This document shows, in pieces, positions 7,688-52,500 of a DNA stretch of 64,000 nucleotides; within the stretch, counting starts at the first letter, position 1; every line of letters begins with the position of its first letter. Under the pieces are notes generated by a model. It made no database searches. It saw only the letters and a list, made by a program, of their open reading frames with translations, and was not told the DNA's origin. Position numbers and translations under genes: made by a program. The DNA is from Bilabrum cf. latius (Eukaryota), in the NCBI GenBank assembly GCA_965178125.1, contig OZ237758.1, positions 806,001-870,000 of the forward strand. Direction: 5' to 3'.

Positions 7688-7733
<46 letters not shown>

Positions 7734-10700
7734 TCCAGGTGGAATGGACGTGCCAAACGAAGACTGCTATTGCTGCTGGTCGGCAGCCGCACCCGCAGCC
7801 GCGAGAGCCTACAACCCGGCAAACGCGGATGAACCGGAGAACGAGCCTCCCCCCATCGCAGTGTCCTCCTGCACCCGCGCTCGCTTGGACGGCGGCCCCA
7901 GGTCAGACAGAGCCAGCTCCGGCAGGTCAGCGGCCACCTCTGTCATTCGGTCGCTCCTGAAACCACGGACAGTCTGCCCGCTGCACAGCCGCAGCACCAC
8001 GTTCGCCACCTCGTACTTGTTCCCTGTGGCTTCCAGCAGGCTCCTGCAACGGAAGAGGATCTCCGTGCTTGACCTGTCCTTCCTGATCTGGTGCGTGGCC
8101 AGCTTCCTCGTGGCGGCCCTCCACTCTGCGATCCTCCATGGCCTCACACCTTTGCTCCTGAGGACGCGGTTGTTGAACGCCAGCAGGAAGTGCCCCTGGG
8201 CAGTCGAGGTCTCCAGCTGCAGGCCATCGCCGTAGGTCCTCCGTGCCGCGAACGTGATCACCTCAGTGAGATATCCCGTGTCTCCTCGGACTCTGCGGTT
8301 ACTGCCGCGCTTCCGGCTGACCTGCTGGGTGCTACCGAGCCTGCCGCGGGTCCGCATGTGACCAGCGGCACTTCCTGCCGTCGCATCTGTCGCGCTGCCC
8401 GTGCTCCCGGCATCGCTGCTGATATCCTGGTAGGCCCCTGGTATGCGCTGGTGCACACCGTCGAGGCCTCCGGCGAGGGTGCCTCCTGCCCCGCTGGCAC
8501 CCATGCCAGACCACACCGAGGAGTTGCTCCCCGCAGCCAGCATGGAGGAGGGTGCGGTGCCTGCCCTCATTGCCGCGTCTGTCGCAGTGCTCGCAGCAGA
8601 GCCTGCCGCCGAGTTGGCGGACGAAGCCCCCTCCGTGCCAAAGACCGCACTGGCACCGTTCTGCACATTTGGTCCACCGATTGAGGCGGCACCCGGGCCC
8701 GTTGCAGGCAGCACGTGGTGGTATTGCGCCGAGGCACCCAGTGCAGGGCGTTTGGAGGCTGCCGCACGCCGCGCGGGCTGCGGGACTGTACCAGCCCCAG
8801 TCGCAGTCGACGTCGCATCGGCTGACAGCTGCGGGGCTTCCGCTGCAGGCGATGACGACGACGATGGCAGCTGCTGAGCTTGAGGTGTCTGCCCGCTGCT
8901 AGCTGCCCGGACGTCTAGATCGGTTGCGCTGCCATCTGTGTCCGATTCCATCACCGATTGCCCTCCCAGGCTGACTCTCACCTTGAGCTTCTGCTTCTTG
9001 TTCGGTTCTGCATCGCTCGTGTCGGGATCGTCGACGGGCCCGCCGTTCGTTTCGTCGTCACTGTTGTTCGGGCTAGTGTCATCTCCGCCGTTGGCACCGC
9101 CTGCCGGGGCTGAGCCCTGGCTGCTCCCCACCTGCGCACTGGCTCGGGTGCGCCTCGTGGAACGGCCCTGATCTCCCTTGCCGGACCCACCCGCATCGTT
9201 CGAAGTGGACTGCCCATTTGATGACGACCCGCCGCCCGTTCTGCTTGACCCACCTGCACGAGCTAGGGCTGCGCGGAGATCGTCGGGATGCACGCCAGCG
9301 CCCCCCAATGGAGCCGAGCCAGTGTTCAACGTCCCCGCAAGTGCCCTCGTCCGGCCGGCTGCATCCCTGTCCTTGCTGTATCTGGGCCCACCAAGCGGAC
9401 TGGTGTCCATGTCAGCTGCAAGGCTGCTGCGTACTGCAGAACAACCGTTCTGCAGGTGCTGGGCAGCGTTTTCCGATGAGGCACGGCGGATTGGTTCGTT
9501 CTGCTGCTGCGGGGTCCCAGCCCGCAGCTGACTGTTTAGCAACAGCTCCTGCTGCAGCTTCCGCTAACTGCGTTCCTTGCGGAGCAGCGCGCCCTGCATT
9601 GCCAGCTGCTGGGGCATGATGTACGGCGGAACAGGCGCGTGCATCGGTGCCACCATCCCAGCGAGTGAGGCGTGGCCAGTCATGCCCACCGAGTTGGCAG
9701 CCATAGTGGGCTGCACCACGCGATACGTCTGCATGTGCTGCACTTGAGCCTGCAAGTCAGCCAGGCTCATGCTACCGTATGCAGTAGCCCCGGCTGCAAC
9801 TGCCAAACGTGGGCTCTGCCACTGAGGGCCCACCCAACGGCCGGCATGCATGCCAAACGACATGGGATGGTTAAGTACGAATGGAGAGTACCCCCCCGCG
9901 TGCAGGCCACTGGGGAACACAAATTGCGACGATGTTGGCCTTTGGTGGGTAGGGCCGGCCTTTGCGTTTCCTCGTGGTTCTCCAGCCGCAACAGGAAGGC
10001 GGTACTGGTACTCTTTGATCGCACTTCCTGTGTGCTTTGCAGGCTACTTGCCCTGCTTCTTGGCAGCAACTGCTGCAACTGCAGCTGCCAGTTTGCTGGG
10101 CACTGGTAGCCTCAGCGACTGGCCTGCGACAGGTTTAACGGGATGGGCAACCGGCTCCATGGGCTTGGAGGCTCCTGCGTGCTGATGGGCTGGCGTTGGA
10201 TCCGTATCGTTGCCTTCGCGTTTCCGAGACACGGACACCGCCGGGCGGGCCGAGCCAACGCTGGCAGGCTCTGGCACACTGTTCGTGCGCTGCGGTGTCG
10301 CCAGCGGGTCCTGCTCCTCCTCTCTTGCCGTGGCCTTGGCAGCTTGTTGGCCTTGCTCTCCTGCTGTCCCAAACGAGCCGCTACCGGTCGCCACTGTCGG
10401 AAAGTGCCCAAGCCTGAAGGCAGGGCCCTTCCGCCGCCGGCTGCCTTTCGGTGCGATCCCAGCAGGGGTTTCTATCCTACCGCTTCCCCCTGAAGGCCCC
10501 TTGGCCTTGTGCCCGGACCGGCCCTTTCCGCCCGGCAGGTCCTCCCGCGTGCCTGGCAATAGCAGAGAGCCCTTCGCCCGCGCCTAGGCCTGTGCCGCAA
10601 TGCGAGCGGTGGGGTCACTGGGCATCCCCGATGCGTTTGAATGCTGCAGTGACATGAGCCGCACCATCGTGGATGCCTGGTAGCCTGCCTATCGGGCCAT

Positions 10701-11616: not shown

Positions 11617-11650
<34 letters not shown>

Positions 11651-12674
11651 AGGGTGTACCAGCGGCGGCAGAGGGCTGGCTCGGGTGCAGCGGACCTCCA
11701 GGCTGCAGCAGCAGATGCATCCACCTCTTGCGGAACACCAGATCCCCGTGCAAGTCGCTCATCGAGGCTTCTTCTGCTCTCCAATCGGACATTCCACCGC
11801 TCTTGCTTGCGCTGCTAGTGGCCCCTGAGGCCCGAGCCCTGCTGGCAAGGACGTCGGAAGCCTCCGTCTGGCTGTCCTCGTCGCTATCACTAGACACAAC
11901 CGCAGGGGGCGACGGACAAATGCTAGTAGATGCCGATCCCATGGCTGCATCATTTAGCGACCGGGATTTGCCAGCTAGGGGCTTGGAGGCCCCTGACGTG
12001 CCGGGAGATCTTGCGCTGCCTTTCTGTCCTCGCAAGGAGCGCTTGAGCGCTGCACGAACCCTGTTCGACTCATCGACCGCTCTATGGCGTCGACGGCTAC
12101 GAGAAATTGATGCGCTCGATTTGGCATGGCCATTCTACGCCCACCTATCGATGCTCCAGAGCTCCAAGACCTCGTGCGTGTGCTTTAGCTGCGGTTCCAC
12201 TTTGGCAGCGTTGCCCTCGACTCTTTGCTGGGAATCAAACCATTCTCGATATCCATCATATGCAGAAGAGTAGACCTGACCGGTAGCCGCAAACTAGGCA
12301 GCTTGCTTGGCCCGGATATGCCGCGGACAGAACTCGATCGTGAATAAGAGACAGCACTGCTCGCACACATCTCTTGAGCACCCCTTGTCTTTTGGCCGAG
12401 AGCACCATGGGTTCAAGCACGATCCATTTCGACCTGAGCCGGTCATTGCTTTCGACACTGCACGGTGTTTACCTGCGACGCTGGAGCGAGCAGATGCCGC
12501 TGCACCTCGGCTGGCCCGCTTCCCCGTGCTCTTGCCTCCAGGGGACAGCTTTTGGCTGACTGCACGGGAAGATACACTACTATCACCCATTCGACTCTAT
12601 TGGTGATCCAGCGGTAGCTGCCAGAGCACGCCTCCGCCTGCCGCTACCGGGTCGGCCAGCGAGTGGACTGACAT
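6861..12674 (-). CDS. ~1940-aa low-complexity protein with an N-terminal Cys/His cluster and polyQ/polyS tracts; function unknown
   Basis: Seven listed ORFs lie in one minus frame from ATG 12674 to TGA 6861-6863, broken only by TAG (7548, 7809, 9564, 10044, 10584, 10689, 11649, 12135, 12294, 12597). Confidence 0.75.
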
Positions 12675-34838: not shown

Positions 34839-34993
34839 AGTGCTTCTCGAGTCTAAAAGTTGGTCCCTAGAATATCAAGAATGCCAGAAATATGCTACCT
34901 CTCCCGCCAACACGAGACAATCCAGGATCCTGCATTCATCTTCGATCCTTGCAAGCCCCACTGGCTTGGCAAAGGCCGCTTCCCACAGCCTCA

Positions 34994-35678: not shown

Positions 35679-37046
35679 TCAGTGTATCCGCGACATGTGT
35701 TTCTTCAGATCACTTCCTTGCCCGAAGTGCTTCCCGCACACGCTGCATTCGTGATTGCGCTCCCCAAAATGCACGGTGATCATGTGCTTCTTGACATCAC
35801 CTGCCTGCCCGAAGCGCTTCCCGCACACGCTGCACTCGTGATTGCGCTCCCCCAGATGCACGGTGGTCATGTGCCTCTTGAGACTGCCTGCCACCCCGAA
35901 GCGCTTCCCGCACACCATGCACTCGTGCTTGCGCTCCCCCAGATGCACGGTGGTCATGTGCTTCTTGAGATTGCCTGCCACGCCGAAGCGCTTCCCGCAC
36001 ACCATGCATTCGTGCTTGCGCTCCCCAAGATGCACAGTGGTCATGTGCTTCTTGAGATTGCTTGCCCGCCCGAAGTGCTTCCCGCACTCAATGCACTCGT
36101 GATTGCGCTCCCCAAGATGCACTACGCTCATGTGCGTCTTGAGACCACCTGCCTTCCCGAAGCGCTTGCCGCACACGCTGCATTCGTGCTTGCGCTCCCC
36201 AAGATGCACGGTGGTCATGTGTGTCTTGAGACTGCCTGCCTCCCCGAAGCGCTTCCCGCACACCATGCACTCGTGATTGCGCTCACCCAGATGTACGGTG
36301 GTCATGTGCCTCTTGAGATCACTTCCTTGCCCGAAGCGCTTCCCGCACACGCTGCACTCGTGCTTGCGCTCCCCCAGATGCACGGTGCTCATGTGCGTCT
36401 TGAGACCACCTGCCTCGGCGAAGCGCTTCCCGCACACCATGCACTCGTGCTTGCGCTCCCCAAGATGCACCGTGGTCATGTGTTTCTTGAGATCACCTGC
36501 CTCCCCGAAGCGCTTCCCGCACACGCTGCACTCGTGCTTGCGCTCCCCCAGATGCACAATAGATACGTGCCGCCTCAAGTTTCTCATCGATCCCAGTGCC
36601 TTGCCACATATTTCACACATGTACGCATGTCGATGAATACCATGCTCGATGCGCCGTCTCTTGGATCCGGAGAGACTGCTCGATTCCTTGACCCCTATGT
36701 GTCTGTTGCGCTTTTGCCCAGCGGATGCTGAGCCCGATTCGCCCCATCGGCTAGGATGCATACCATCGGCGGCATCATCTCCCAGCTCGAAACGGTCCGA
36801 AATCGTACCACGAAACTCAGACTGAGCGGCACCCGGAGCTCGCGGTCCACTTGTGTCATTCCTCTGCAAGCGGCTTGCATCGGGCTGCATCGCAACCGGT
36901 GCTTGTAGGCCAGCACTGGAAGACACATCCCATACAGTCAAGGCCGACCCGGACACCGCACGAACCTCATCCTCATCGCTGTCGCTGCCTGAAAAATCGC
37001 TGACTAGATCGATCACGTCGTCAGACTCAGCGCTTACTCCTGCCAT
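35679..37046 (-). CDS. C2H2 zinc-finger array protein ZF-B (11 fingers, 29-aa unit)
   Basis: Intact 455-aa ORF of HECxxCGKRFGxAGxLKxHMxTVHLGERK repeats. N-terminal DVIDLVSD followed by an acidic run, and KRRR. Ends TGA. Confidence 0.92.
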   Translation of the reverse strand: MAGVSAESDDVIDLVSDFSGSDSDEDEVRAVSGSALTVWDVSSSAGLQAPVAMQPDASRLQRNDTSGPRAPGAAQSEFRGTISDRFELGDDAADGMHPSRWGESGSASAGQKRNRHIGVKESSSLSGSKRRRIEHGIHRHAYMCEICGKALGSMRNLRRHVSIVHLGERKHECSVCGKRFGEAGDLKKHMTTVHLGERKHECMVCGKRFAEAGGLKTHMSTVHLGERKHECSVCGKRFGQGSDLKRHMTTVHLGERNHECMVCGKRFGEAGSLKTHMTTVHLGERKHECSVCGKRFGKAGGLKTHMSVVHLGERNHECIECGKHFGRASNLKKHMTTVHLGERKHECMVCGKRFGVAGNLKKHMTTVHLGERKHECMVCGKRFGVAGSLKRHMTTVHLGERNHECSVCGKRFGQAGDVKKHMITVHFGERNHECSVCGKHFGQGSDLKKHMSRIH

Positions 37047-37221
37047 GCCGACACCAGCTTACACAAACTGCTTCTTGAGTCTTAAAGTTGGTCCCTAGAC
37101 AATCAAGAATGCCAGAAATATGCTACCTCTCCCGCCAACAGGAGACAATCCAGGATCCTGCCTTCATCTTCAATCCTTGCAAGCCCCAAAGGCTTGGCAG
37201 ACGCCGCTTCCCACAGCCTCA

Positions 37222-39439
37222 TCACCCTTCCAGAGCCCGCACTTCATCCACAGACAGACCCACTGGCATCGTCACCAACACACACAGCAACGGACGCACC
37301 AACCCACCAGCCGACCCATCCAGAGCCAGAGGATCCCGCGCAAGCAGCGCCCGGATACGAGCCCCGGGGGCCCCTCCCGCATCGAGGCACGACAGCCCGA
37401 ACCGCACCACGTGCGTCTGCTGAGGCACCAGCACAGGCACCGCCTGCACGGGTCCCTCCGCTCCCCCCTCCCCATCCCCCACGCGGTACTGAGCCGGGTC
37501 CCACTCAAGCGCAAGCACCATCCCGCGCACCATCCGCGCCCCGGCGTTCGTCAGCGACACCGTCAGCAGGAAGCGAGGACCCAGCCCAGTCACCTCCGCG
37601 CTGGCCCGCACCTGACCCCCCGCCGCCCCCGCCGTCCCATCTGCCGCCCCCGCCCCCGCTGCCTGCGCCCCCACGAATGCCCTGGCCACTTTCAGCCGGA
37701 GCCGGGCCAGGTCCCTCTGGAAGGCCGCGTGCATGGCGGCGGGCTCCTCCCGCTCCCTGGCCGCCAGTTCCACGAAGAGCTTGGTCTTGGGCTTGATGGG
37801 CAGGGGCACGTCCTGCTCGGAGGGGGCGCCCGTCTTGGACAGCAGGGAGAACTTTGTTCTCCGGGGCAAAACCCTCACCCTCACTGCACCGCTGCCGTAT
37901 AGCGCCACGAGGCACCTCTCCTCCCTTCCAAAAGGGCCGAACCGAAGGCAACGGACAGGGTCTGCGAGCTCCACCGCCCCGCCGGTAGCAGGGCCTGCAG
38001 CCCTCCCGGCTTCGACCCCAGACCTGCGCGTTGACAGCAAGCCGTCTTCCCCGGCAGCCGCAGCCACCGCGGCCACTGCAGCGCTAGGGGGCCGTCCTGA
38101 CGTCGTCCCTGCAGCCCCGGCCCCGGGCCCGGGCCCGGGGTCAGGTCCGTCGCCCTCCACCCACGCAGGGCCCGTGGCCATGAGAAGCACCCTGTGTGCG
38201 GGTGCGTACAGGCGTATGTCCCCGTCGGCCAGCGCGAGAGCGACGCCCTCCACCGTCTGCGCGTCGTGAATCTCCACCTGACAGGCCGCCGTAACGGCAC
38301 ACGGCACTCTCACAGACCATGTGATCCTGCCTTTGTGGGAGTACGACCGGACCCATCCGTCCTGCGTGGCTGCCACACAGCCTGTCTTGAGCGCGACCAG
38401 ATGGGTCACGGGCGCAGAGGGCTCTATCACGGAGGGGCTGACCACGCCCCCGCGCTTCACCTGGTATATCTTGTGGTTGCGGCAGGCCACAAACACCCGG
38501 TATTCCACGGCCGCGTTGCCGGTGCTCGCCAGCAGAGCGGGGACGCTGGGCAGCTTCGAGGAGTGCTGCACGGCGTTCGCCTCCCGTACCAGCAGCAGGA
38601 GCTCCCCCGCCTCGGTGCCTATCAACAGCTGCTTGGGGGCATCGCCCACCATCTCGCGCTGGTCCAGGGAACACATGCAGGTCACGACGGATGCTCGCTT
38701 CAGCGTGCTCGCTGCCTTGCCGTGCATGGCGACGTACCTGGTGAGCGCACCCACGGCCGGGTCATCATCACTAGGAGACGAAGAAGCAGAGGAGGCTGCA
38801 CTCGGCGCAGGTCCTCCCGCAGAGGATGCTGCGACTGCGCCCGAATGTGAGGGCGGCTCCAGTGCCAGAAGGTTTGCAGAGGTCACGGTCAGGTCGACGC
38901 CTTCGGTCCGCCGGAGCTGCCCCAGTCCGTGGTACAGATCCGTGACAGAGACCCCGCCAGAAAGTGCATCTGACCACTGCAAGGCAAGGAGCAGGTAAAC
39001 GAGGCAATGCATTGAAGTTGAGGGCAGAAGAGTTTGTATGAAGCCCTGCGCACTTCGAATCGCTGCTCACTAATTTCTGCTCGTCTGCATTCACGAGCCT
39101 TGCTGGAAGCTAGAACTTAAAGAACGGTTTCAAGTTGCGGTACACAAATACAAACGATCCGCTGGCTATAGCAACGGCTGGAGTAGTGCCGGGACTTTCA
39201 TCTGTTCGAAACGCGCAGCACGCAGTTGGCGTATCGATCAGATTGACAACTCTCTCCATCACCATGCGAGCATTCAGGACTCGCAATTTCTTGTCTTCAC
39301 ATGCAGCAATCAATCGATAATCTGAATCGCCTTTCAAGTCAAGGCCGTCTACACAAGAGTTCGAAGGGACGCAAAGGTTAGCGAGAGGGTCGTAGACTGC
39401 GTTCAGCCATCTGGGCTTCGCTGCAGCACCGGCAGCCAT
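37222..39439 (-). CDS. BBS1: Bardet-Biedl syndrome 1 (BBSome subunit); complement(join(37222..38976,39071..39439))
   Basis: WLNAVYDPLANL, DLKGDSDYRL, PAVAIASGSFVFVYRNLKPFFKF*LP, LIGTEAG, EYRVFVACR, FGPFGREE, PKTKLFVE..RERE..MH..FQRDL..LRL and TMPV. One TAG (39110). Intron at 38977-39070. Ends TGA. Confidence 0.93.
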
Positions 39440-40466: not shown

Positions 40467-40605
40467 AGTGTGTTTTTTACTTGTAAGAATGCACGGCAAA
40501 CCGAGCTCAAGCGCACTTGTCACGGCAGCCGAGACGCCTGTGGATATAGCGGGCTGCACCATCAAACACAATGAACAAGGATCGCTAGCTTAGCGTTGGC
40601 TTCAA

Positions 40606-43600
40606 TCACCCAAGCACATCTCCGTGGGGACCCGACTCGGCAAGGAGCTCCGCCTTCCCGTCGCGAGCCCCCGCGTGCAGCGCCTTGGCCGCAGACACAG
40701 GAGTCGCCGATGCCAGTGGCGTATTGCCTCCAGAGCTGCCAGCAGCACCCTAAGCAGGGGCCGATGCAGAAGCGGGTGCGCCGTTGCCGGCCGCTGCCCC
40801 GCTGTCTTCCCCATCGCCGCCGCTGCTGCTGCTGCTGCTCCCGGCGTCACCTCCGTGATGCCCGGCCCCGGCCCCTGCAGTCGATCTAGACGCCAGTGGA
40901 GCGAGGGCGCGCTGCCTCGCACTCGTCACACCGGACCGACCCTCGGACGCACTCGAGGCGGTATAGCTGCTTGCACTCGTCACACCGGGGCGCCTCGAGG
41001 CAGGGGCCGAGGCCAGTCCCTCGCGCCGCGCCGCCGCTGTGCCGGCCGTAGTGGTGCTGCCTTGCGGCGGGGACACGGCGGTATACGGCGGCGAAGACGA
41101 AGACGAAGACGAAGATGACGATGAGGAGGTGGTGGTGGAAGTCTGGACGGATACCGGCGGGTGTGCCGCGGTCGGCATCGGCGGAGGGGAGGCCCCCGCT
41201 GATGAAGGTGCATCGCACGATCGCGCGGTGACACCCCCCCCGCTGCCTCGGCTGCTGCCTCCCTGGCTGTTGGACCCGCTGTCGTCACACCCCACCCTCG
41301 CCACTGTGTTCCCCCGCAGCCTCCTTGCCCTCAGCGCAGACTGCGCCACCCGCCCAGCAGTCGCACGGGCGGCCGACCTCGCACCGAGAGGTGTGGCAGA
41401 CACGATCAGCGCCTCCACGGCCGTGGCGTCCGCTGCGTCCACCGATCCACCGGTGGATCCGCGGGCGAGAGCTGAATTATCGCCCTCGCCGCTGCGCTCG
41501 TTACTCATCGGGAGCTATCCTACGCCCAGACCCTCCGTTGAATTGACAGCAGCGCCGACTCCTGCACCCCCGCTCCAGCCCCTCCCCCTGCCCCTGCCAA
41601 CAACAGCACCGTCCTCGTCCCCCACGCGCACGGACCGCCCCCCCACGCTCACCGCGCCCACAGAGGCCCCCCCACCGCCCTCCTCCATCAGGTTATTCCC
41701 CGACGCGAGGCGAGCCGCGGTCCTCGACCCCAGCGTGGAGACGCTGCCGGCCGAAGGGGTCGAGTGCGCGGCGCCCGACCTGGTTCCGCTCTCCTCCTGT
41801 CGGAGACTCCGAGTCATTGGCAGTGACCCTGGGAACAGCGCCGAAGTACTCAACAAACTGGCCTCCGATCCCAGGTTCCGCCGGGCTCCGCGCCTGCCCG
41901 CGAGCGCGGACTGCGTTGAGGACAGCGACGCGCCGCGCTTGCCGAGGGGTGACGAGTGCGCTGCGGAGCGTGAGGGAACAGCGGCAGACAGCTGCAGCAG
42001 CTGAGCCGCAGCCGTCGGGGCCGACGGAGTGAGCGCGATCGGGCTCCCTGCGGAACCAATGGATGCGCGGCGCCCGCGGAGCCGCAGGCTGGCGGGGGCC
42101 CCGCGCGTCCTGGGGGTGGCGGGGGCGGCGGAGGGCAGCATCGCGGGAGACGCGCCCGCGCCGGCGTGCAGCAGAGCCGCAAACCCCGTGGGGCCGTCCG
42201 AGCCACCCACCGCGACTCCGGCGCCGCGCATTTCGAATGCGGAACCAACCGGGGGAACAAGCACGCCCCCATCGTTCTCCTTCCAGCCCCTCTCCCTCAG
42301 CTGATCCAGCGCGTCCTGCAGCCCAGCCTCCACCGCCCGCGCCACAAGATCCTCGAAGGGGCCCGAATGCGCGGCGCCCCCAAGGAACGGAACTTCACCC
42401 CCGGCCTCCCCATCGGTGGGCAGCCCTGTCCCGTGCGCCTGCACAGCTCCCGACTCGGAGTGCGCAGACGCGCCCGCCCCTCCGCCCACGCCCATTCCAG
42501 AGCCTGACGAGGAGCTCTCACCACCTCCCGACAGCCCGGGCCCCGAGACCGCCTCCCCACCGGCGCTCCGGCTCGAACCAACGGTGCCCGTAGGGTGGCT
42601 GCTGCCTGCCGAGAGAGTGTTGGTCCCCGTCTCGCTGTTCCCCGAACCTTGTTCCCCGGACCCGCTCGGCTTGATACCCTCGGCTGTGCTGCTTCCGGTA
42701 CCAGCACCACTTCCGGTACCATTGCCACTGCCATTATTATTACCATTACCGCTGCTGCTGGTGGTGCTGCCTCCTCCTTCACCGGAGGACTGGAACAGAC
42801 GCACGCCCACGGTGGTGGACTGGCTCTCGCTGCCCACGGCACCACCAGCGCCCCCGCCCAGTTGCTACTCCAGCAACGCCACCGCCAGCGTCGTGGGCGA
42901 GGGCTGCTTCTGCTTGGACTTGGACGCATCGGTGGCGTCTCCTCCGCCTTCCTTGTGTTCCTCCTCTGCCCTCTCACCCTACTCCCCCCCCTCCCCATCC
43001 TTGCCTTGTTCCCCGCTGCTTCCTTCGCCCTCCCCCTCCCCACTGCCCTGTCCTGTCCTCCTCCTCATCCTCCTCGTGCCGGTCCGCCTGCCCGACGTCT
43101 GCCGCGCACTCCCGCCTGCCCCCCGCCCCCCCTGGCCGCCCATGGACCGCGTGCTCTTGCCCGCAGGCGTCCGGGCGTCCGCCCAGGCTGAGGCAGAGGA
43201 GGCGCTGCCCGTGCTGCCGCCCTCCTGTGCCCCCCCCTCGCTCACGAAGCTCTCGTCTCCCCCGCCGTCCATCCAGCCGCCAGACCCGTCCTCCTCCATC
43301 GGCTTGCTGGGAGTCACCGCGAAGCCTCCAGAGAGGACGGATGAGGCCGCTCCGGGACCCCTGGATCGCCGAAGGGATGCCCGAGATGCCTGGAGATCCA
43401 GTCCGGCCCCCGGGCTCGCCTACATCGAAGGCCCCGAGAGTGGCCCCAGGGCCCCCCTCCTGCTCATGTCTGCAGAGGAGACCAGCCCGTGCCTCGTGGG
43501 GTCGTCTCCCTCACTTGACAAAGGCACGTTCGAGCTGGAGGCTGACCCGTTCGCACCCGAGAGCCCACCCCCATGTGATGACCCCCTAGAGTCCGGTCGC

Positions 43601-46600
43601 AAGCCCGAACCGCTGCCAGATGCCGACCCATGCGCCCCGCCCGAGTCACCCCCTCGACCATCGCCAGTTCCATCTGCCGCCCGGCCATCCCTGCCAGCGT
43701 CCGCGCCGGAGCTAGAGCTGCCACGAGATGCACCCGGTGCAGGCGTGGTGGCGATGGCCCGGATGCTCCCCCCAGATGAAGACAGCCTCCCGGCGCTGCC
43801 CGCCCCGCTGCTGGTGCGGGCCATGCGCGCCGCCGCCTGGGAGTTCACCGGGAGGGCCGGCAGCGAACCTTCGCCGTCCCCTGAGTGCCCCGCCAGCGGC
43901 CCCGGCGGGCCCCCGGGGGACATGAGCCTGGAGATACCGCTTGCCGCTGACTGCCCCATCTGACTGCCCCTGCTACCAGCGAGACCAAGGGCGCTGTTGT
44001 CGTCCCCCGCTGCCCCACGGCTTGCGTTGCTGCGGCTGAGGCTGGACCCCTGCGCCCATGCATCCCCGCTGGTGCTGCCGCTGCTCCGCAGGCTGCCCGC
44101 CCCCAGGGACCCCGCACCCCCAGAGTTCGAGGGAACAAACGGCCTGTCGATCACCGCGGTGGGGGCGTCCACTCCGGCAGCACCAGAACCAGCACCAGCA
44201 CCAGCACCAGCAGCCGATCCAGAGGCAGCAGACCCTGCCCCCCGCATCGAGGACGAAGCCATCGACTTACTCCCGCCGCCACCACCACCACCGAGAGCAT
44301 CCAGAGTCAGTCCCCTCCTCCCGCCCTCCAGCACATCCACGGAATCTGCACCTGCACCTGCGCTGGCGCCGACCCCCCCGTGGCCTCCGGAGACGCCCCC
44401 CCTCCGTGCAAACGCCCCACCGGGGGCGCCCATGGCCGCTGTGGGAGACGCGCCCCTCAGCTGCATCGCACTGCCGGACGCGCCCGCCGCAGCGGCTGCC
44501 TGCAGCGCGACGCCCGGCATTGTCGACATACCCGCCCTTACCCCTGTCCCCGTGTCTTCCCCAAGCGCCGCTGCTAGAGCAGCCTCCTTGGCCGTTGCCC
44601 TCACCCGCTCCAGGCTGTCCTCCTGCCCCGACGACCCCTCGAAATTGAGGACGACGGGGGAGGGCCTGTCCACGGGCTGCCCCCCGGCCCCCCCCCCGGT
44701 CGTGAGGGCGTTCTGCGGGGTGGTAGACTGAGCCGTGGCCCGGCTGCTGGCTGACGCGGCGCCCGCGCGAGAGGAGTGGCCCATGCCCATGCCCATGCTC
44801 ATGCCCATCGAGCCCATGGCCGCCACGTCAGGGGGGGTATGCGCCTGGTCGCCTCCGTGGCTCGCAACCAGGCCGGCCGCCGCCTGCTGCGCCGCGCTCC
44901 GCATCCCACCGGTGGTGACCCGCCGCACCCGGGTCGCCAGCGCGGGGGTTTCCGGGGCGAGGCCCCTGAACAGCTTCGTGTGCGGGCCGCCGTCCAAACC
45001 TGCCGCCTCCATCGCCGCATGTTCCGCAGCCAAGCGCGCGGCGCCGCCCCCGATCGCGTGGTCCACGCCGAAGACGGCTTGCAAATATGCCCCATCGCTC
45101 AGTGCGTTCAGACCGGAGCTGCTCCCGTCACCCGCGCCCGACACGCTGTTCCCTGCGGACCCACCGTACCCCGCGGCCCCCGTGGCAACAGCCGCTGCCT
45201 GGGCCCGCGCTGTCCTCGACCTGCTCCTGGCCGACCTCCTGGCAGTGCTCTGGGCAGGGGCGGGGGAGGGCGTGACCGAAGCAGAGGCGCCGACGGTGCC
45301 GCCGCGCCTGCCCCCCCTCGGCCTGGACCTGGCCTGGGCGCCTGCAGAGGAGAAAGACTACGAGGAGGACGTGCCAGCTGCTGCGCTGGTAGCAGAAGCA
45401 GCCGCCCCGCCCCTCCCCCTGGCTCCCCCCCTGGCCCCTCCCTTGGATCCACCGGTGGACACATGCATGAGCGCGGCCCGAATCAGCAGCGCGCTGGGGA
45501 CCGTATGGTTCGCCTGCCGGGAGTTGGGGCGCGCAGTGCCGCCCTCCTCGGCCGCCCGTTGTGCGGCAGGCACGGCCTTGCTGGGACTCCTCAGCATCTC
45601 ATCCGTGATGCTCGGGTCCAGGGACCCGTCCTCCCTGGGCTGCACCTTGCCCGTGCGGACCAGAGCCTTGGCTCGCCTCACTGCAGAGTTCCAGCGGTTC
45701 TTGCACGCGTTCTCTGGTCGCCCCGGGACGACTTTGGCCACCTCTGTCCATCGCGTGCCCACCTGCGCCACCCCGTGACAGAGCGTCTCGTCCTCCGCGT
45801 CTGTCCACGGCCCGTGCTTGATGTCCGGGCACAGCTGGTTGAACCACCGCTCCCTGCACTGCTTGCCGAGTCTGCCTCTGCGAGTGTTTGAGAAAACGGG
45901 GTGGACAGTCGGCGGTGGCAGATAGCGAGAATAAAAGGGTGCGATCGATAGATTCGAGGCATCGTGCTCCTGCTCCTAGCTCAGCTCAATCAGTTGACAG
46001 TCAGTGGACTTCAAGTGGGCGACACAATGCACCGAGACCCTCGGAGCAGCAGCACCTGAAGAGAACCGCAGCTTCCCAAAGAACGAGAGAGATGCAAAAT
46101 ACAACTTGCGGTACACCTGGAAAGCTTGGCTCTGCAGCTCGCACGAATTCAGAGCAATCCTTCCGGGGAGCATCTGCTCGTCTTTACCATTTGTGGGTCG
46201 CTCAGCCAGACAAGCAGGATAACAAGCAGCAACAGAGCAGGGCAATCGCACAGTGTGGGTCCCGATCAAGTCTCACGGTATTTTAGCTGCTATCTAGCTC
46301 CATTTCGCAATGCCCGCTGCTTTGCTCTCCACGATGATACGGTCCTCTTCCGCAGTCCAGGGTCCCTTCACGAGTCCGGGCTTGAGCACCTTTTGCCAGC
46401 GGTGCAAGCACTAAACGTCGGTTCTTCCGTTGTCCAGGTACTCTGTTGCAATCTATTTCCACTATCTGGGGCCGTACCGTTCGACTCCATCGCGAAGAGC
46501 TTGATCTTCCTCCGTAGTCCACTTGCCAGTCCTTGCCTGGCCATTGCTTCCGCATGACGCAGCGACTGAAACTACTGATCGGCGCTGAGGTGCTGCCTTA

Positions 46601-46785
46601 GAACCCCTGGGGCTACCTTCATCACCGGTGGAACCATCGTCCCCAGTGTAGACCGCACGACCGCCCTCAACTCGAGCCCTCGTGCGCCGTCGAGGTCGCT
46701 CAGAAGCTGCTGTAGCACCACCGGGCGCCACAGCCGTTTGCCCTGACGAATCTGCCTCTAATTCAGATCGAGACCGCTTTGGCAT
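40606..46785 (-). CDS. MYB3R: R1R2R3 (3R) MYB transcription factor with a long low-complexity tail, ~1930 aa; complement(join(40606..45877,46277..46785))
   Basis: GKWTTEED..W K*IA..RTDV*CLHRWQKVLKPGLVKGPWTAEED..KWS*IAAKIP/GRLGKQCRERWFNQLCPDIKHGPWTDAED..RWTEVAKVVPGRPENACKNRWNS. TAGs at 46462, 46453, 46411, 46294, 45358, 43420, 42979, 42865, 41515 and 40750. TGA at 40606-40608. Confidence 0.92.
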
Positions 46786-47206
46786 CGCCAGGTTTTTCTT
46801 GCCTGCTCGGTTCGGTCACGAGGGCGAGGCTGATTCAGCGACGTTTAAGATTTGGGACTTTCAACAGCAATATCGCTGGCGTTCGGAATACTACAGAACA
46901 ACCCAATGGCTCAGTGGTACTTGATGATTAATCTAATATGGATTTACCAATGATGTGTGATTTTGTGCTTTATTTGCACGACCACACTCCGGAAAAGTTT
47001 GGCCTGCTCACCCTGTTCGTTCGGTTGTAAAGTAACGTACACTTCTGACAAACTCCGGGAAAACAGATTTTCAACAGCCGGTTCGATGTCCACAGAGCCC
47101 ATGCAGCAAAGCTACTAAGTATTACGGCGCCGGGGTTCCAAACCGCTGATGTCCCACTGACGGCTTTTCAAACTGACCAGCGGGATGCTGAGTTGGGCAC
47201 TCGTAT

Positions 47207-47395
47207 CCCGCCCTCCCGCCGCAGCAGCCGATGGTGCGCCCTCACGGCCTCCCCCGCCAGCCGCTCCAGCACGGCCAGCAGCCGCGCCACCTTGCGCACG
47301 GCCCAGTGAACCTTCCTCGGAAGTTCCCTCTCGAAGGACGGCATCTGTTCCCCGGACACGTCCTGCCCCTCCCTCTCCCTCCGGCGCATGTCCTG
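47207..47395. repeat. 189-bp duplicate of the 3' coding region of the giant gene (49778-49966)
   Basis: Near-identical direct copy at offset 2571, on the other side of ZF-C. Confidence 0.9.
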
Positions 47396-47508
47396 TGGCT
47401 TGAGCAAGGAGCCAGAGGAGCCTGCAGCATAGAGAGCTCTACAAGTAGACTCACATGATGCACATGCACACACATCTTATCTGTGGTCTAGGTTCAATGC
47501 GCTGACAA

Positions 47509-49301
47509 TCAGCTTGACTCCCCATGTACGGTACGCATGTGCCTCTTGAGACTGCCTGCCTCCCCGAAGCGCTTCCCGCACACCATGCACTCGTACTTGC
47601 GCTCCCCAATATGCACTACGTTCACATGCCTCTTGAGATCCCCAGCCTGCCCGAAGCGCTTCCCGCACTCGATGCATTCGTGCTTGCGCTCCCCCAGATG
47701 CACGGTGCTCATGTGCCTCTTGAGACTGCTTGCCTGCCCGAAGCGCTTCCCGCACTCGATGCATTCGTACTTGCGCTACACCAGATGCACCGTGCTCATG
47801 TGCCTCTTGAGACTGCTTGCCTGCCCGAAGCGCTTCCCGCACTCGATGCATTCGTACTTGCGCTACACCAGATGCACCGTGCTCATGTGCTTCTTGAGAT
47901 TGCCTGCCTGCCCGAAGCGCTTCCCGCACTCGATGCATTCGTGCTTGAGCTCCCCCAGATGCACCGTGCTCATGTGTGTCTTGAGACTGCCTGCCTGCCC
48001 GAAGCGCTTCCCGCACTCGATGCATTCGTGCTTGAGCTCCCCCAGATGCACCGTGCTCATGTGCGTCTTGAGACTGCTTGCTTGCCCGAAGCGCTTCCCG
48101 CACTCGATGCATTCGTGCTTGAGCTCCCCCAGATGCACCGTGCTCATGTGCGTCTTGAGATGGCCTGCCTTCCCGAAGCGCTTCCCGCACTCGATGCATT
48201 CGTGCTTGCGCTCCCCTAGATGCACCGTGCTCATGTGTGTCTTGAGACTGCTTGCTATTCCGAAGCGCTTCCCGCACTCGATGCATTCGTGCTTGCGCTC
48301 CCCCAGATGCACGGTGCTCATGTGCTTCTTAAGACTGCTTGCTTGCCCGAAGCGTTTGCCGCACTCGCTGCATTCGTGCTTGCGCTCCCCAAGATGCACC
48401 ACTGACACGTGCCCCCTCATGTTATATGGACTCGGACATCAGGATTGAAGCAACGGGGAGCAGAGGTGAGACGGAAGACGAGGTGGGCGCAGGAGGACAG
48501 GAGGTGGAGAAGAAGAGGGGGACACCGGCACAGGCGACGACAGTGCGGTGTCAACAGGGAGAACACAACGGGAGGAATGGGGGCTCCAGGTGCAAGGCAC
48601 GAGGGAGACACGGGTGGCAGCGGACTGCATGGCCAGCAGCACGCAGAAGGCCAACAGGTGGGTGGACAGGTGGGGCGCACGGCAGGTCGGCCAGGACCGG
48701 CGCGTGCAGGCTGAAAGGATAGGGCCAAGGTGGCAATGCTGGGAGCAAAGCACACGGTCCCTAGGGCGGGGAACAGGAACAGGAAGCCATGTGGCGACGA
48801 GGCCAGTCGGGTGCATGGGGAAAGTGGTGTGTACATTCGTAGTGTCAGATGAATACCGCATTCAGGTGGACCGGTGAAGAACCAGTCGTTCGGGGTGAAG
48901 CCCAGTGGGTCCGCGGGACCGGGGGCAGGAATTTTTGCCGAGCTCAGCACCTTCCCACACACCTCGCACTCAAGGCATCCTCCACTGTCGCCTGCCCCAG
49001 GTTCCTTCCTTGCTTCCGGTCCATATCGTGCTGAGCGCCTCCTCTTCTGTCCGAGTGCAGCACTGGAAGATGTACCTGCATCGATCCCATGTACGATGCC
49101 GTCGCCAGGAGCGGATGTGCCCGCCGATCTGGCGGCTGGTCGGCTTGCCACGGTCCTCTCGATGTTGCTATGAGATTGCTTGACTCCTGCACGCGAGACG
49201 CGACGACGCTTGGACACGCCATCATCCTAAGTTCTTGACTTTTCACACGGAGCCGGCAGAGGAATCTCGCCGTTGTCGCCCACCGCAGGCCCCGAAGACA
49301 T
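47509..49301 (-). CDS. C2H2 zinc-finger array gene ZF-C (10 intact fingers + 1 split by an insertion); possibly a pseudogene; start uncertain
   Basis: The first finger CEVCGKVLSSAK|NMRGHVSVVH is split by 48420-48937. The array 48420-47509 is open apart from TAG at 47863 and 47776 in duplicated linkers (LV*RK versus LGERK). Ends TGA. Confidence 0.7.
48420..48937 (-). mobile_element. Second full copy (~518 bp) of the dispersed repeat
   Basis: Reverse complement of 33465-33976 with few substitutions and one small indel. Confidence 0.55.
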
Positions 49302-49579: not shown

Positions 49580-52500
49580 TCACACCTTCGCCACCGCTCC
49601 CCCCTCCGACACGCCCAGCTGCACCGCCCCCACACACGCTCCCACCAGCATGCGCCTCTGTGCCCGAGTCAACAGCCCTGCCCGCATACCGGCCTGCACA
49701 GCCGCAGCGTCCCCCAAAACACCACCACCCCTGCCCCCCGCCCCCGCCCCCACCGCCCGAGCCGCCCCATCCACCGCCCCGCCCTCCCGCCGCAGCAGCC
49801 GACGGTGCGCCCTCACGGCCTCCCCCGCCAGCCGCTCCAGCACGGCCAGCAGCCGCGCCACCTTGCGCACGGCCCAGTGAACCTTCCTCGGAAGTTCCCT
49901 CTCGAAGGACGGCATCTGTTCCCCGGACACGTCCTGCCCCTCCCTCTCCCTCCGGCGCATGTCCTGGATGAATGCCCGCCGCTTCTCGGATCTCTGCGTC
50001 TCGCACATCTTCACCTTCGCCAAAGCATAGTCAGCCAGCAGCTGCGCGCAGCATCGAGGACCCCCCGCCGCCCCCAGTGTGGGGGACAACCCGTCGAGGA
50101 GGCCGGCGAACAGAGCCGCGCCAGCCGCGCCCGCCCCCAAGCGCTCCAGCCCGAGCTCGTGGCTGGGAGGTTCCGCAACCCCTCGCGCGGCGCCCCTCCC
50201 CCGCGTGGCCTGTCTGGCGGCCTCGACCAGCGCGAGGGGCGGCTCGAGCGCAGGTATGCCCACCGGCTGTGCCGTCAGGTCACCTAGGTCGGCAAGGTTC
50301 TCGCCGGGCCGGGTCCACCCCTTGACACCGCGCCCCGACTCCTCTTCTTCCGCCTCTTGCTGCTGCTTCTCTTCGTACCCATGCCGGTGGCGGTACTGGT
50401 ACTGGTCTGCATCACCGTGCCTCCCCCCGTGGCCCAGCATGCCCCCATACCCCGGCAAACGACTCGCCACACCGTATGCATCACCGCCGGCTCCGTCCCC
50501 CAGATCGTGATCATGCTCGTGATCGTGGCCCACCAGACGGTGCTGGGGGATCCGACCTGACCGACTGGGCCTCAGCCGCATGCTCTGCGCCCGCATGATG
50601 GCACGGCCCGCAGGCGCCGCCATCACATGCGCCCCTGCCCGCCCATCGCCGCCCTCGCCCTCTCTTTCTCCCTCACGCATGTGCTCGGACACCGCCACCG
50701 CCACCGTCCTCTTGTCCCGGCTGCTGCTGCTGCTGCCCCACATGGCAGACCTCGCCCTCGCTATGCCGCCCTCTTGTTCCCCCGCACCGCCGCCATCCTC
50801 TCCGTCCTTCTCGCCCAGCCGGAACCGCAGCTGGGGACCCCCGCCTCCACCACCACCGAGGGCCTCCTCGAGCGCAGCGGCATCCACGGGCAGAGCATCG
50901 GACAAGAGCGTGCCGCTGGACCGCCTCGAGTGGGTCTGGCTGGGACCCCTTCCGCTACCAGGAGTAGAGGAGCGACCCAGTGCCGCCTCTTTGTGTTCCC
51001 TGGGACCCGCCGGTTCGGAATGCAGGAGGAGAGCAAGACGGTGCACGGACTTTTGCCGCTGAGGGCCCCCCCGTGGCTTGCTTCCGCCGGCGGCACGACC
51101 GTGCGATGCACCAGTCACAAGGGCACCACCGGTGGCACGCACGGCCAGCGCGCCACCAGTCACGAAAGGTGTCCCGCCCTCGGGCCCGCCCTCGTCCTCC
51201 AGCCGACCCATAGGTGAGGCCCACCCGCTGCCATCATGACCCGCCGCGCCGCCCTGGTCGTGACCCGCCGCAGCACCGTCTGTTCCCTGCCCCGAGTCGC
51301 CACCCAGGATCTCTGCCAGGGCCCCCTCTCCCTCCCCCTACGACAGCTGCTTGAAATCCCGGAGGCTCTGCTGCAGCAGCGCCTCATAGGCGCCGAGCTA
51401 CCCCTCCTGAGACAAGGCCCCCCCCTCCCGCTCCCCCTCCTCTCCAGCCGCAGCCAAGGCGCCTTGCCCCAGCTCCTGCCCCGCCCAAGTCGCAAGCCAC
51501 CCGGCCTTGAGGTACGTCCGGTCCCTGTCCACGGTTGCAACCGCATCGTCCAGCGAGGTCTCTCTCCTCACGGAGGCCCCCTCCACCGTGTCCAGCCTCG
51601 TCCTCGGCCTGCCGTCCCACCCGAGGGGCAGACGTGCCAGCATCTTCCTCCTCTTCTACTGCTCCGACAGCTGCTCCATCTCGTCCTGCGTGAGCCAGTG
51701 CCCTTGTTCCCTGAGCCTCGAGTGCTCCTCCTCCATCTCGTCGTCCCAGTCCTCCACTTCGTCCTCGCCCACGTCCTCAAGGTCGTCAGGGTCGGCGGCG
51801 AGCGGGTTACTGGCGCTGTCGCGGCTACCGGCGGCACCGGAAATGATCTCGGTGCCCGGCGCCGGCACCACGTCGCACGTGTAGAGCCACCGCAGCCGAT
51901 TCACCAGCAGCCTGCTCGCCCACAGGCACCGCTCGATGCAGGCCTGCACCAGCGGCACAGGCGCGCACCCCTGCACGCGGGCCGGGGAACAGCGGGTGAT
52001 CCAGTGGGGCACCGGCTCGGGGATCACCTGCTGCTGGCCCTAAATACCTTGTTGTTCCCCAGAGTCGCCCCCCCCGAGGAGGGTACCCAGGGGCATGGGC
52101 AGAGGCAAAGTCTCACCGCTGCCAGGTGCCGCCGCAAGCGCATCCGATCCACCGGTGGATCCCACCGCCGCCAGAGCGATCTGCTCGTCGGTCGGGGCGG
52201 GACTCGCCACGAACCCGGCTATCCCGCTCCCCCGCCATGTGTTCCCCGCAGAGGGGCCGCCATCCAGCTCGAGCTCTAGGCAAACCACGGGCGAGGAGGC
52301 AAGGTTTGCCACCAAGGCATCTGCGTCGTCCCTCTTGTGGAACTTGCGGGCGAACACGGGCACCGAACCTTCGATCGGGTGTTCCCGGATGCTCTCGGGA
52401 GCCGCTTCCTCCCCACCCCCTAGTATTTCTTGCCCGCCGCTGCCTCCCCCCGGCTGTAGCCAGGGAACAGTGGCCGTCTGCCCCCTTGGCACCATCACCC

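What the first reader, a model, noticed from the sequence alone, without database searches (positions are those of the whole stretch)
46280..46530. Diagnostic site: TAG at the conserved Gln of the MYB motif RTDV[Q]CLHRWQKVL
The minus strand reads AGA ACC GAC GTT TAG TGC TTG CAC CGC TGG CAA AAG (TAG at 46411-46413). 3R-MYB and c-Myb R1 have RTDVQC(L/Q)HRWQKVL, and the equivalent position in R2 of this same protein is CAG (GKQCRERW). Three more TAGs within 170 bp sit at polar surface positions. This is the best single-site evidence that the amino acid is Gln rather than Leu, Glu, Tyr or pyrrolysine.
Basis: partly seen in the sequence, partly recalled or inferred. Interest (0 to 1): 0.85.

Follow-up and report, generated by a model that had tools for sequence, protein, structure and literature searches.

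The report
TAG read as glutamine, MYB gene
In this GC-rich protist genome the usual stop codon TAG is used inside genes as an amino-acid codon, and one TAG in a MYB transcription-factor gene sits exactly where all close relatives have glutamine, which is the best single clue in the window that TAG means glutamine.

Summary
On the minus strand, TAG codons lie in frame at 46462-46464, 46453-46455, 46411-46413 and 46294-46296 of a three-repeat MYB gene.

With TAG masked as X, the 46411-46413 codon aligns to the Gln of c-Myb RTDVQC. It also aligns to Gln in 64 of 64 close 3R-MYB-type hits and in 137 of the 150 best hits.

TAG is a sense codon throughout the window. Eleven ORFs (15,779 codons) hold 63 in-frame TAG, 0 TAA and no internal TGA, and 10 of 10 complete ORFs end in TGA. 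A contig from another study joins the two MYB exons across the predicted 399-nt GT..AG intron and keeps the TAGs.

Gln is the best reading (about 0.85). TAG also abuts poly-Gln runs, 2 observed against 0.06 expected. The case is thin, though. The other three MYB TAGs face variable columns (N; R/K; E/F/L), and two zinc-finger TAGs face GAG (Glu) in 29 paralogous fingers.

TAA is not a sense codon, so the code looks TAG-only, like Iotanema. No tRNA, eRF1 or genome was available, and the organism is unidentified.

The parts
46783..46785 (-). ATG start codon of the MYB gene
   Evidence: First ATG after the upstream in-frame TGA. Coordinates verified. A contig of run X5 extends to 46979, so a 5' UTR exists.
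46277..46785 (-). Exon 1 (509 nt): N-terminal region, MYB repeat 1 and most of repeat 2
   Evidence: Pfam Myb_DNA-binding 1.4e-19 with TAG=X. c-Myb 1h88_C scores 1.2e-30.
46462..46464 (-). In-frame TAG, codon 108 (GPR-TAG-W)
   Evidence: Homologue column: N 58, S 4, Q 1, K 1 of 64.
46453..46455 (-). In-frame TAG, codon 111 (WK-TAG-IA)
   Evidence: Homologue column: R 24, K 23, Q 4 of 64, rest mixed.
46411..46413 (-). Diagnostic in-frame TAG, codon 125 (RTDV-TAG-CLHRWQKVL)
   Evidence: Opposite Gln of c-Myb R1. Gln in 64 of 64 close hits and 137 of 150 best hits.
46294..46296 (-). In-frame TAG, codon 164 (KWS-TAG-IAAKIP, repeat 2)
   Evidence: Homologue column: E 33, F 17, L 6, Q 2 of 64.
45878..46276 (-). 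Intron, 399 nt, GTGAGA...TCGCAG, splitting repeat 2 (IAAKIP|GRLGKQCRERW)
   Evidence: Predicted from the sequence. Contigs of runs X5 (depth 21.7) and X6 (depth 2.19) join 45877 to 46277, skipping exactly 399 nt. The X1 contig keeps the intron.
45859..45861 (-). CAG (Gln) at the equivalent position of repeat 2 (GK-CAG-CRERW)
40609..45877 (-). Exon 2 (5269 nt): end of repeat 2, repeat 3, and a long Ala/Gly/Ser-rich tail. Six more in-frame TAGs at 45358-45360, 43420-43422, 42979-42981, 42865-42867, 41515-41517 and 40750-40752
   Evidence: Pfam Myb_DNA-binding 1.8e-18. Codon list. X5 contigs lie colinear over 40556-45877 with 0 other letters, with uncovered gaps between contigs.
40606..40608 (-). 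TGA stop codon of the MYB gene
47776..47865 (-). Counter-site: two adjacent C2H2 fingers with TAG (47776-47778 and 47863-47865) in the linker HLV-TAG-RKYEC, where the other fingers read HLG-GAG-RKHEC
   Evidence: GGG GAG becomes GTG TAG. The aligned codon is GAG in 29 distinct paralogous finger units of four arrays.
11649..11651 (-). TAG heading a (CAG)10 tract (CCC TAG CAG x10) in the 1964-aa ORF 6864-12755
7767..7769 (-). TAG inside a Gln run (CAG CAG CAA TAG CAG) in the same ORF
39110..39112 (-). In-frame TAG in the first BBS1 exon (NLKPFFKF-TAG-LP)
   Evidence: Pfam BBS1 7.2e-29. Opposite V, S and S in the 3 solved BBS1 chains.

Best explanation
The window is nuclear DNA of a GC-rich, intron-poor, flagellated eukaryote in which UAG has been reassigned from stop to a sense codon, most probably glutamine. 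UGA is the working terminator, and UAA is kept out of coding frames. The flagged site is codon 125 of a 1926-codon three-repeat MYB gene. That gene has two exons and ten in-frame TAGs, and codon 125 occupies the invariant Gln at the start of the third helix of repeat 1 (RTDVQCLHRWQKVL).

Shown here: TAG is in frame in many genes. It persists in an intron-less, and therefore most likely spliced, molecule. It faces an invariant Gln. It is embedded in poly-Gln tracts. TAA is never in frame.

Inferred, not shown: the mechanism. That would be a tRNA with anticodon CUA charged by glutaminyl-tRNA synthetase (typically a mutated tRNA-Gln CUG), together with an eRF1 that no longer recognises UAG but still recognises UGA and probably UAA.
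For: TAG is a sense codon:
- Eleven ORFs (15,779 codons) hold 63 in-frame TAG, 0 TAA and 0 internal TGA, and 10 of 10 complete ORFs end in TGA.
- Reading TAG as sense raises the longest ORFs from 941 aa to 4327, 2220, 2178, 1964 and 1888 aa. Reading TAA as sense changes none of these.
- TAGs lie inside Pfam-recognised domains of three unrelated genes: MYB, the kinase ORF and BBS1.
- A 1139-nt contig of run X5 (another study than X1; 0 other letters) covers 45442-45877 joined to 46277-46979. It lacks exactly the 399-nt GT..AG intron and keeps all four TAGs. X6 shows the same joint. X1 holds the unspliced form.

The residue is Gln:
- With TAG masked as X, codon 125 faces Gln of c-Myb.
- It faces Gln in 64 of 64 close hits and in 137 of 150 best hits. 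Over every domain alignment the figure is 477 of 543.
- The log10 likelihood over the four MYB sites is Q -4.44 against R -6.51, K -6.53, N -6.61, L -6.72 and E -6.85 in the close set.
- TAG sits next to Gln runs of 3 or more at 2 of 16 such positions, against 0.06 expected (Poisson P 0.002). For Glu runs the count is 0 of 22.
- Repeat 2 of the same protein has CAG at the same spot.

TAA is not a sense codon: there are 0 in-frame TAA where about 15 would be expected at the CAA share of 0.195 (P about 1e-6).
Against: - The Gln call rests on one invariant site plus two poly-Gln sites.
- In the broader 150-hit set Lys is only 0.42 log10 units behind Gln (Q -3.89, K -4.31).
- Among columns at least 90% conserved, only one of three faces Gln. 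The others are N (58 of 64) and the zinc-finger Glu, which is GAG in 29 of 29 paralogous fingers.
- MYB codon 164 faces Glu in 33 of 64 hits, and faces Glu in 4 and Arg in 1 of the five closest hits whose sequences were read.
- A zinc-finger paralogue has AAG (Lys) opposite another TAG.
- The one kinase orthologue has Ser opposite one TAG. A second site there is ambiguous: only the ungapped register gives Gln.
- The poly-Gln P value is not corrected for the 15 residues tested.
- No tRNA gene lies in the window, there are no Rfam hits, and no genome is held, so the decoding machinery is unseen.
- The library type of X5 and X6 is not on record, and the tool marks X5 'RNA? (probably DNA)'. The joint could be an intron-less DNA allele rather than mRNA.
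Confidence: 0.82

Rival explanations
1. UAG is a sense codon but encodes glutamate, as UAG does in one oligohymenophorean ciliate and UAR does in Blastocrithidia.
For: Two zinc-finger TAGs replace a GAG that is present in 29 of 29 paralogous finger units. MYB codon 164 faces Glu in 33 of 64 close hits.
Against: At the invariant MYB site Glu is 0 of 64 and 1 of 150. The four-site likelihood puts E 2.4 log10 units below Q. No TAG abuts a Glu run of 3 or more (0 of 22 positions), while 2 abut Gln runs. The finger TAGs are one mutational event (GGGGAG to GTGTAG, with a Gly-to-Val change beside it) copied into two recent repeats, so the 'conservation' there reflects how young the copies are.
Confidence: 0.06
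2. UAG encodes another residue: Lys, Asn, Leu, Tyr or pyrrolysine.
For: Lys is second in the 150-hit likelihood (-4.31 against -3.89 for Q), and R/K dominate MYB codon 111. N dominates codon 108 (58 of 64). A zinc-finger paralogue has AAG opposite a TAG. UAG = Leu exists in a rhizarian and in some ciliates (abstracts).
Against: At the invariant site K, N, L and Y are each 0 of 64. In the 150-hit set K is 4, L is 1, and N and Y are 0. None explains the poly-Gln embedding. Pyrrolysine machinery is unknown in eukaryotes (established knowledge, not tested here).
Confidence: 0.05
3. Both UAA and UAG encode Gln (the classic ciliate/dasycladalean code, NCBI table 6), and TAA is simply rare in this GC-rich genome.
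For: All 10 observed terminators are TGA, as expected when TGA is the sole stop.
Against: There are 0 in-frame TAA against 63 TAG, where the CAA:CAG ratio predicts about 15 (P about 1e-6). Allowing TAA as sense merges only an antisense frame and a short upstream extension. Ten of 10 TGA is also what base composition alone gives 28% of the time, since the off-frame TGA share among TGA+TAA is 0.88.
Confidence: 0.05
4. Standard code: the TAGs are nonsense mutations in pseudogenes, sequencing errors, sites edited in the RNA, or sites of low-level readthrough.
For: None specific. The zinc-finger gene alone could be a decaying copy.
Against: There are 63 in-frame TAGs in 9 of 11 ORFs, with no TAA or internal TGA. 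Contigs from two studies agree with the window, with 0 other letters. The intron-less contig keeps TAG, so the sites are not edited if that contig is RNA. Sixteen TAGs in one 4327-codon frame rule out useful readthrough.
Confidence: 0.02

Closest known systems
Iotanema spirale nuclear code (UAG = Gln; UAA and UGA stop), Panek et al. 2017, PMC5304391 (abstract and section 7 read)
   Same: UAG alone is reassigned, is never seen as a terminator, and UAA is never in frame. The residue is inferred from conserved columns. Even there, only about 41% of 90%-conserved columns opposite UAG were Gln-dominated, which is about the rate for ordinary Gln codons (44%). A mix of Gln and non-Gln columns, as seen here, is therefore expected.
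   Different: In Iotanema UAA is the main terminator (104 of 119 complete transcripts). Here 10 of 10 terminators are TGA and the DNA is 55-73% GC. Their call rests on 28 hyperconserved sites. This one rests on one invariant site plus two poly-Gln sites. The organism here is unidentified.
UAG = Gln in the ciliates Hartmannula sinica and Trochilia petrani, McGowan et al. 2024, PMC11687900 (abstract only)
   Same: UAG-only reassignment putatively to Gln, found by mining genome data.
   Different: Those are ciliates with UAA as the preferred stop. This window has long genes, a spliceosomal GT..AG intron and high GC, and its closest named MYB relative is from the stramenopile Cafeteria roenbergensis (55% identity over repeats 1-2). 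That is a weak pointer, not a placement.
NCBI table 6 (UAA and UAG = Gln) of ciliates, dasycladalean and cladophoralean green algae and hexamitin diplomonads. The table number is recalled; the code and lineages are from abstracts seen (PMC2984419 seen as a search listing only).
   Same: A stop codon is captured by Gln, and TGA terminates.
   Different: TAA is not used as a sense codon here: 0 observed against about 15 expected.
c-Myb / plant MYB3R three-repeat MYB proteins (PDB 1h88, 1h8a)
   Same: Three Myb repeats are present, and repeat 1 carries the RTDVQCLHRWQKVL motif.
   Different: A 1926-codon protein with a roughly 1600-residue low-complexity tail, a two-residue insertion (NG) before RTDV that is shared with the closest unnamed hit P0085, and a TAG at the invariant Gln.

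Membership tests
Three-repeat (3R) MYB / c-Myb family | Three tandem Myb DNA-binding repeats | tested here: met
   PF00249 scores 1.4e-19 (two stretches, repeats 1 and 2) on the exon-1 piece and 1.8e-18 (repeat 3) on the exon-2 piece. c-Myb R1R2R3 chain 1h88_C scores 1.2e-30.
Three-repeat (3R) MYB / c-Myb family | Repeat-1 signature (R/K)(T/S)DVQCLHRWQKVL | tested here: met
   Every residue of RTDV-x-CLHRWQKVL matches, with the TAG at the Q. The Q column is Gln in 64 of 64 close hits, most of which carry this motif in the rows printed.
UAG-only reassignment to Gln (Iotanema-type code) | In-frame UAG in conserved, expressed genes | tested here: met
   63 in-frame TAGs in 11 ORFs. TAGs lie in MYB and BBS1 domains and in the kinase ORF. 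They are retained in the intron-less contig (library type not on record).
UAG-only reassignment to Gln (Iotanema-type code) | Highly conserved columns opposite UAG are dominated by Gln | tested here: inconclusive
   One invariant Gln column (64 of 64). The two other columns at least 90% conserved are N (58 of 64) and the paralogue-only Glu (29 of 29). Too few sites in 64 kb.
UAG-only reassignment to Gln (Iotanema-type code) | UAA not used as a sense codon | tested here: met
   0 in-frame TAA in 15,779 codons, against about 15 expected.
UAG-only reassignment to Gln (Iotanema-type code) | UAA still used as a terminator | tested here: inconclusive
   0 of 10 terminators are TAA, but composition alone gives 10 of 10 TGA with probability about 0.28.
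UAG-only reassignment to Gln (Iotanema-type code) | UAG not used as a terminator | tested here: met
   0 of 10 ORFs end at TAG, by the ORF definition used. One TAG lies two codons before the TGA of ORF 3-6665, so a dual role there cannot be excluded.
UAG-only reassignment to Gln (Iotanema-type code) | tRNA gene with anticodon CUA and Gln identity; altered eRF1 | not testable with these tools
   No tRNA in the window, no Rfam match, and no genome held.
NCBI table 6 (UAR = Gln) | UAA read as Gln alongside UAG | tested here: not met
   0 TAA against 63 TAG in frame. Reading TAA as sense extends no credible gene.

The most novel reading that the evidence does not exclude
This is an unreported, independent UAG-to-Gln reassignment in a GC-rich, intron-poor, flagellated non-ciliate protist. 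UGA is the working terminator and UAA is almost unused. The closest named MYB relative is from the stramenopile Cafeteria. That lineage and codon-usage regime would differ from every described UAG-only code, all of which keep UAA as the main stop.
Probability: 0.3. Interest if true: 0.75.

Novelty: new member of a known kind. Interest (0 to 1): 0.6.

Why it matters
Nuclear codes in which UAG changes meaning while UAA does not are rare. Panek et al. 2017 called theirs the first such cases (abstract). A few ciliate cases followed (abstract).

A further case in a GC-rich genome that terminates on UGA would show that UAG and UAA can be uncoupled under quite different codon-usage regimes. It would also give a new natural eRF1 / tRNA-CUA pair to study.

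There is a practical consequence too. Any annotation of this genome with the standard code will truncate most long genes: 9 of the 11 ORFs examined carry in-frame TAGs. The MYB site is a convenient target for checking the residue by mass spectrometry.

Tried and rejected
- Whole genome: none is held, so no tRNA-CUA or eRF1 search was possible.
- ARAGORN found 0 tRNAs in the window, and Rfam gave 0 matches at gathering score.
- The look-up of sequencing runs listed no holder on record as RNA.
- Taxon affinity stayed unresolved. The protein atlas gave only family-level matches for MAP65 and BBS1. The BBS1 homologue search returned nothing, because low-complexity words swamped it. MAP65 gave 4 unnamed hits. 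Of 20 proteins looked up, only one cluster carried an organism name, Cafeteria roenbergensis.
- The kinase-ARM ORF had one orthologue, P0169 (43% identity). One TAG there faces Ser. Another is ambiguous: the gapped alignments give no residue, and the ungapped register gives Gln.
- Two metagenome scans for relatives' DNA found no orthologues. The first found none at all, and the second found only 30 generic kinases, L001-L030.
- Enrichment of Gln within two residues either side of a TAG is weak (1.49-fold, against 1.28-fold for Glu) and was not used.
- tabulated query position 88 by mistake. One search corrected this to position 89.
- Literature: five full-text searches turned up no UAG reassignment in a stramenopile, or in any lineage I could tie to this GC-rich non-ciliate window. 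The organism is unidentified, so this does not show the code is unpublished. Supplementary tables were not consulted.
- No structure or complex prediction was run, because none would bear on the residue's identity.
Full report
**1. The observation**

The minus strand of 45800-47200 reads ...GGA AGA ACC GAC GTT TAG TGC TTG CAC CGC TGG CAA AAG GTG CTC AAG..., with the TAG at 46411-46413. Three further in-frame TAGs lie at 46462-46464, 46453-46455 and 46294-46296, so all four fall within 171 bp. The equivalent codon in repeat 2 (GKQCRERW) is CAG at 45859-45861.

**2. The gene**

- The frame opens at ATG 46783-46785.
- Exon 1 ends at 46277 and is followed by GTGAGA.
- The frame resumes after TCGCAG at 45877, which gives IAAKIP|GRLGKQCRERW.
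- The spliced CDS has 1926 codons plus TGA (40606-40608). It holds ten TAGs, no TAA and no internal TGA.
- With TAG masked as X, the exon-1 piece hits Pfam Myb_DNA-binding at 1.4e-19 (two stretches) and the exon-2 piece at 1.8e-18.
- The best solved relative is c-Myb R1R2R3 (1h88_C, 1.2e-30).

It is therefore a three-repeat MYB with a long Ala/Gly/Ser-rich tail.

**3. Support from other sequencing runs**

- Four runs of one study (X1-X4) hold all sampled words of 45300-46900. Two runs of a second study (X5, X6) hold 0.65 and 0.27 of them.
- Laid on 40500-47400, an X1 contig covers 44224-47262 unspliced with 0 differences.
- A 1139-nt X5 contig (depth 21.7, 0 other letters) covers 45442-45877 joined directly to 46277-46979. 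It skips exactly 399 nt, with CT..AC ends on the plus strand, which is GT..AG on the gene strand.
- X6 shows the same joint at depth 2.19.
- X5 has zero depth in the intron bin 46044-46274.
- Other X5 contigs lie colinear over 40556-45877 and cover all six exon-2 TAGs without differences.

The predicted intron is real, and a second data set carries all ten TAGs.

One caution applies. The library types are not on record, and the tool labels X5 'RNA? (probably DNA)'. Spliced mRNA is the natural reading of an exact GT..AG deletion, but an intron-less DNA allele is not excluded. If the contig is RNA, the TAGs are not edited away.

**4. TAG is a sense codon across the window**

- Under the standard code the longest ORF is 941 aa. 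With TAG as sense the longest are 4327, 2220, 2178, 1964 and 1888 aa. Adding TAA as sense changes none of these.
- In eleven ORFs (15,779 codons) there are 63 in-frame TAG, 0 TAA and 0 internal TGA. All ten complete ORFs end in TGA. The two off-frames hold TAG 91/86, TAA 20/41 and TGA 236/209.
- At the off-frame TGA+TAA density, a 4327-codon frame free of both has probability about e^-69, yet that frame carries 16 TAGs.
- TAGs also lie within a kinase-ARM ORF (nine TAGs) and in the first BBS1 exon (PF14779, 7.2e-29).

Pseudogenes, sequencing errors and readthrough do not fit this picture.

**5. TAA**

- No TAA is in frame. The CAA share of CAR codons (0.195) predicts about 15 TAA beside 63 TAG, so the chance of seeing none is about 1e-6.
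- Reading TAA as sense merges only a frame antisense to the 4327-aa ORF, and a 23-codon upstream extension of one gene.
- TAA is thus excluded from coding frames the way a stop codon is.
- It is not seen as a terminator either (0 of 10). However, TGA makes up 0.88 of off-frame TGA+TAA, so ten TGA out of ten has a 28% chance from composition alone.

The code is best described as UAG-only, with the role of UAA unconfirmed.

**6. Which amino acid: the flagged site**

I searched 1.84 billion representative proteins with the 95-residue exon-1 piece, with X at each TAG. That gave 21,235 hits at E <= 0.001, of which the best 150 were returned. For each hit I took its best-scoring domain alignment.

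| MYB codon | Residues opposite the TAG, 64 close hits (best domain >= 85 bits) |
|---|---|
| 125 (flagged) | Gln 64 |
| 108 | N 58, S 4, Q 1, K 1 |
| 111 | R 24, K 23, Q 4, A 3, L 3, others 7 |
| 164 | E 33, F 17, L 6, Q 2, D 2, others 4 |

- In all 150 hits the flagged column is Gln in 137. The rest are K 4, R 2, and one each of H, W, P, E, A, D and L.
- Over every domain alignment the flagged column is Gln in 477 of 543.
- The log10 likelihood over the four sites in the close set is Q -4.44, R -6.51, K -6.53, N -6.61, L -6.72, E -6.85.
- In the full 150-hit set Q (-3.89) leads K (-4.31) only narrowly.

The other three TAGs sit at variable, mostly polar columns and do not speak for Gln.

**7. 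Which amino acid: other sites**

For Gln:
- Two TAGs in the 1964-aa ORF are embedded in Gln tracts: CCC TAG (CAG)10, and CAG CAG CAA TAG CAG.
- TAG occupies 2 of the 16 positions that abut a Gln run of three or more. The expectation is 0.06, giving Poisson P 0.002, uncorrected for the 15 residues tested.
- TAG occupies 0 of the 22 positions that abut Glu runs.

Against Gln, or neutral:
- In a C2H2 zinc-finger array, two adjacent fingers read GTG TAG where the others read GGG GAG. The aligned codon is GAG in 29 distinct finger units of four arrays in the window.
- This is one mutational event, with a Gly-to-Val change beside it, copied into two young repeats. Arrays within the window are 82-92% identical at the DNA level. 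I therefore weigh it lightly, but it is a genuine Glu-facing site.
- A paralogous zinc-finger gene has AAG (Lys) opposite another TAG in an unconserved linker.
- The BBS1 TAG faces V, S and S in the three solved chains.
- The single kinase orthologue has Ser at one TAG, and the alignment at another is ambiguous.
- Panek et al. (section 7) found that even ordinary Gln codons face Gln-dominated columns only about 44% of the time at 90% conservation. A mixed picture is therefore expected under Gln.

Overall I put Gln at about 0.85, Glu at about 0.06, and other residues at about 0.05.

**8. Mechanism (inferred)**

By analogy with described cases, decoding would need two things:
- a tRNA with anticodon CUA charged with Gln;
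- an eRF1 that has lost UAG recognition but keeps UGA.

Nothing in the window tests this.

**9. What organism**

This is unresolved.
- The DNA is 55-73% GC and gene-dense, with very long, almost intron-less ORFs.
- It encodes BBS1, so the organism has cilia or flagella, as well as MAP65, an OTU protease and many C2H2 fingers.
- The closest MYB hit, P0085 (68% identity), is unnamed.
- The only cluster that carried an organism name, among the 20 proteins looked up, is from Cafeteria roenbergensis (P0056, 55% identity). This is a weak pointer only.

**10. Comparison and novelty**

- The code matches the Iotanema spirale type: UAG = Gln while UAA is not reassigned.
- It also matches the putative UAG = Gln ciliates Hartmannula and Trochilia (abstract).
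- It differs from both in using TGA for every terminator seen, and in its high GC content.
- It fails the defining feature of table 6, which is TAA as a sense codon.
- Five literature searches found no report of such a code in a stramenopile or in any lineage I could tie to this window. Because the organism is unidentified, I cannot say the code is unpublished.

I file it as a new member of a known kind.

**Verdict**

Interest is 0.6.

Noticed in passing
47512-48438, 35682-37058, 33951-34874 and about 32772-33457 (all minus strand): Four arrays of near-identical 29-residue C2H2 zinc fingers (87-nt unit, 82-92% DNA identity between arrays). At least two belong to paralogous genes that share an N-terminal region. 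This looks like a young, expanding zinc-finger family clustered within 16 kb.
   Followed up: partly
47168-47476 and 49813-50030 (minus strand): The C-terminal end of the 4327-aa ORF (peptide ...MRRREREGQDVSGEQMPSFERELPRKVHWAVRKVARLLAVLERLAGEAVRAH...) is repeated about 2.5 kb away, between the zinc-finger gene and the MYB gene. It is a local segmental duplication.
   Followed up: no
49583-62563 (-), 3-6662 (+), 6864-12755 (-): Giant ORFs of 4327, 2220 (open at the window edge) and 1964 aa have no Pfam domain. They are rich in Ala/Gly/Ser low-complexity sequence and carry 16, 6 and 13 in-frame TAGs.
   Followed up: partly
6654-6665 (+): ORF 3-6665 has a TAG just two codons before its TGA (...AAK TAG GGN TGA). 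It is worth checking whether TAG can still terminate near gene ends, that is, whether it has a context-dependent dual meaning.
   Followed up: no
46276-46815 (-): MYB exon 1 is unusually TAG-rich: 4 TAGs in about 170 codons against 0.68 expected (P 0.005). Its GC3 (0.53) is lower than the 0.63-0.80 of the other ORFs. TAG makes up 4 of its 9 putative Gln codons.
   Followed up: partly
6663-6863: Two convergent long genes end in TGA only 195 bp apart, and neighbouring genes are a few hundred bp apart. This is a compact genome despite its very long genes.
   Followed up: no
44658-44888: Contig depth jumps to 268-537 in runs X1 and X5, against roughly 4-100 in the other bins. Many odd joints point here. 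The cause is probably a short low-complexity repeat in the MYB tail that is shared with many loci.
   Followed up: no
16478-18688 (+): A kinase-like domain is fused to a predicted membrane stretch and armadillo repeats, with nine TAGs including a TAG-TAG pair. Only one database orthologue exists (P0169, 43% identity). Its model diverges right after the conserved LAPEVLDGW motif, just past the point where the window has a TAG.
   Followed up: partly
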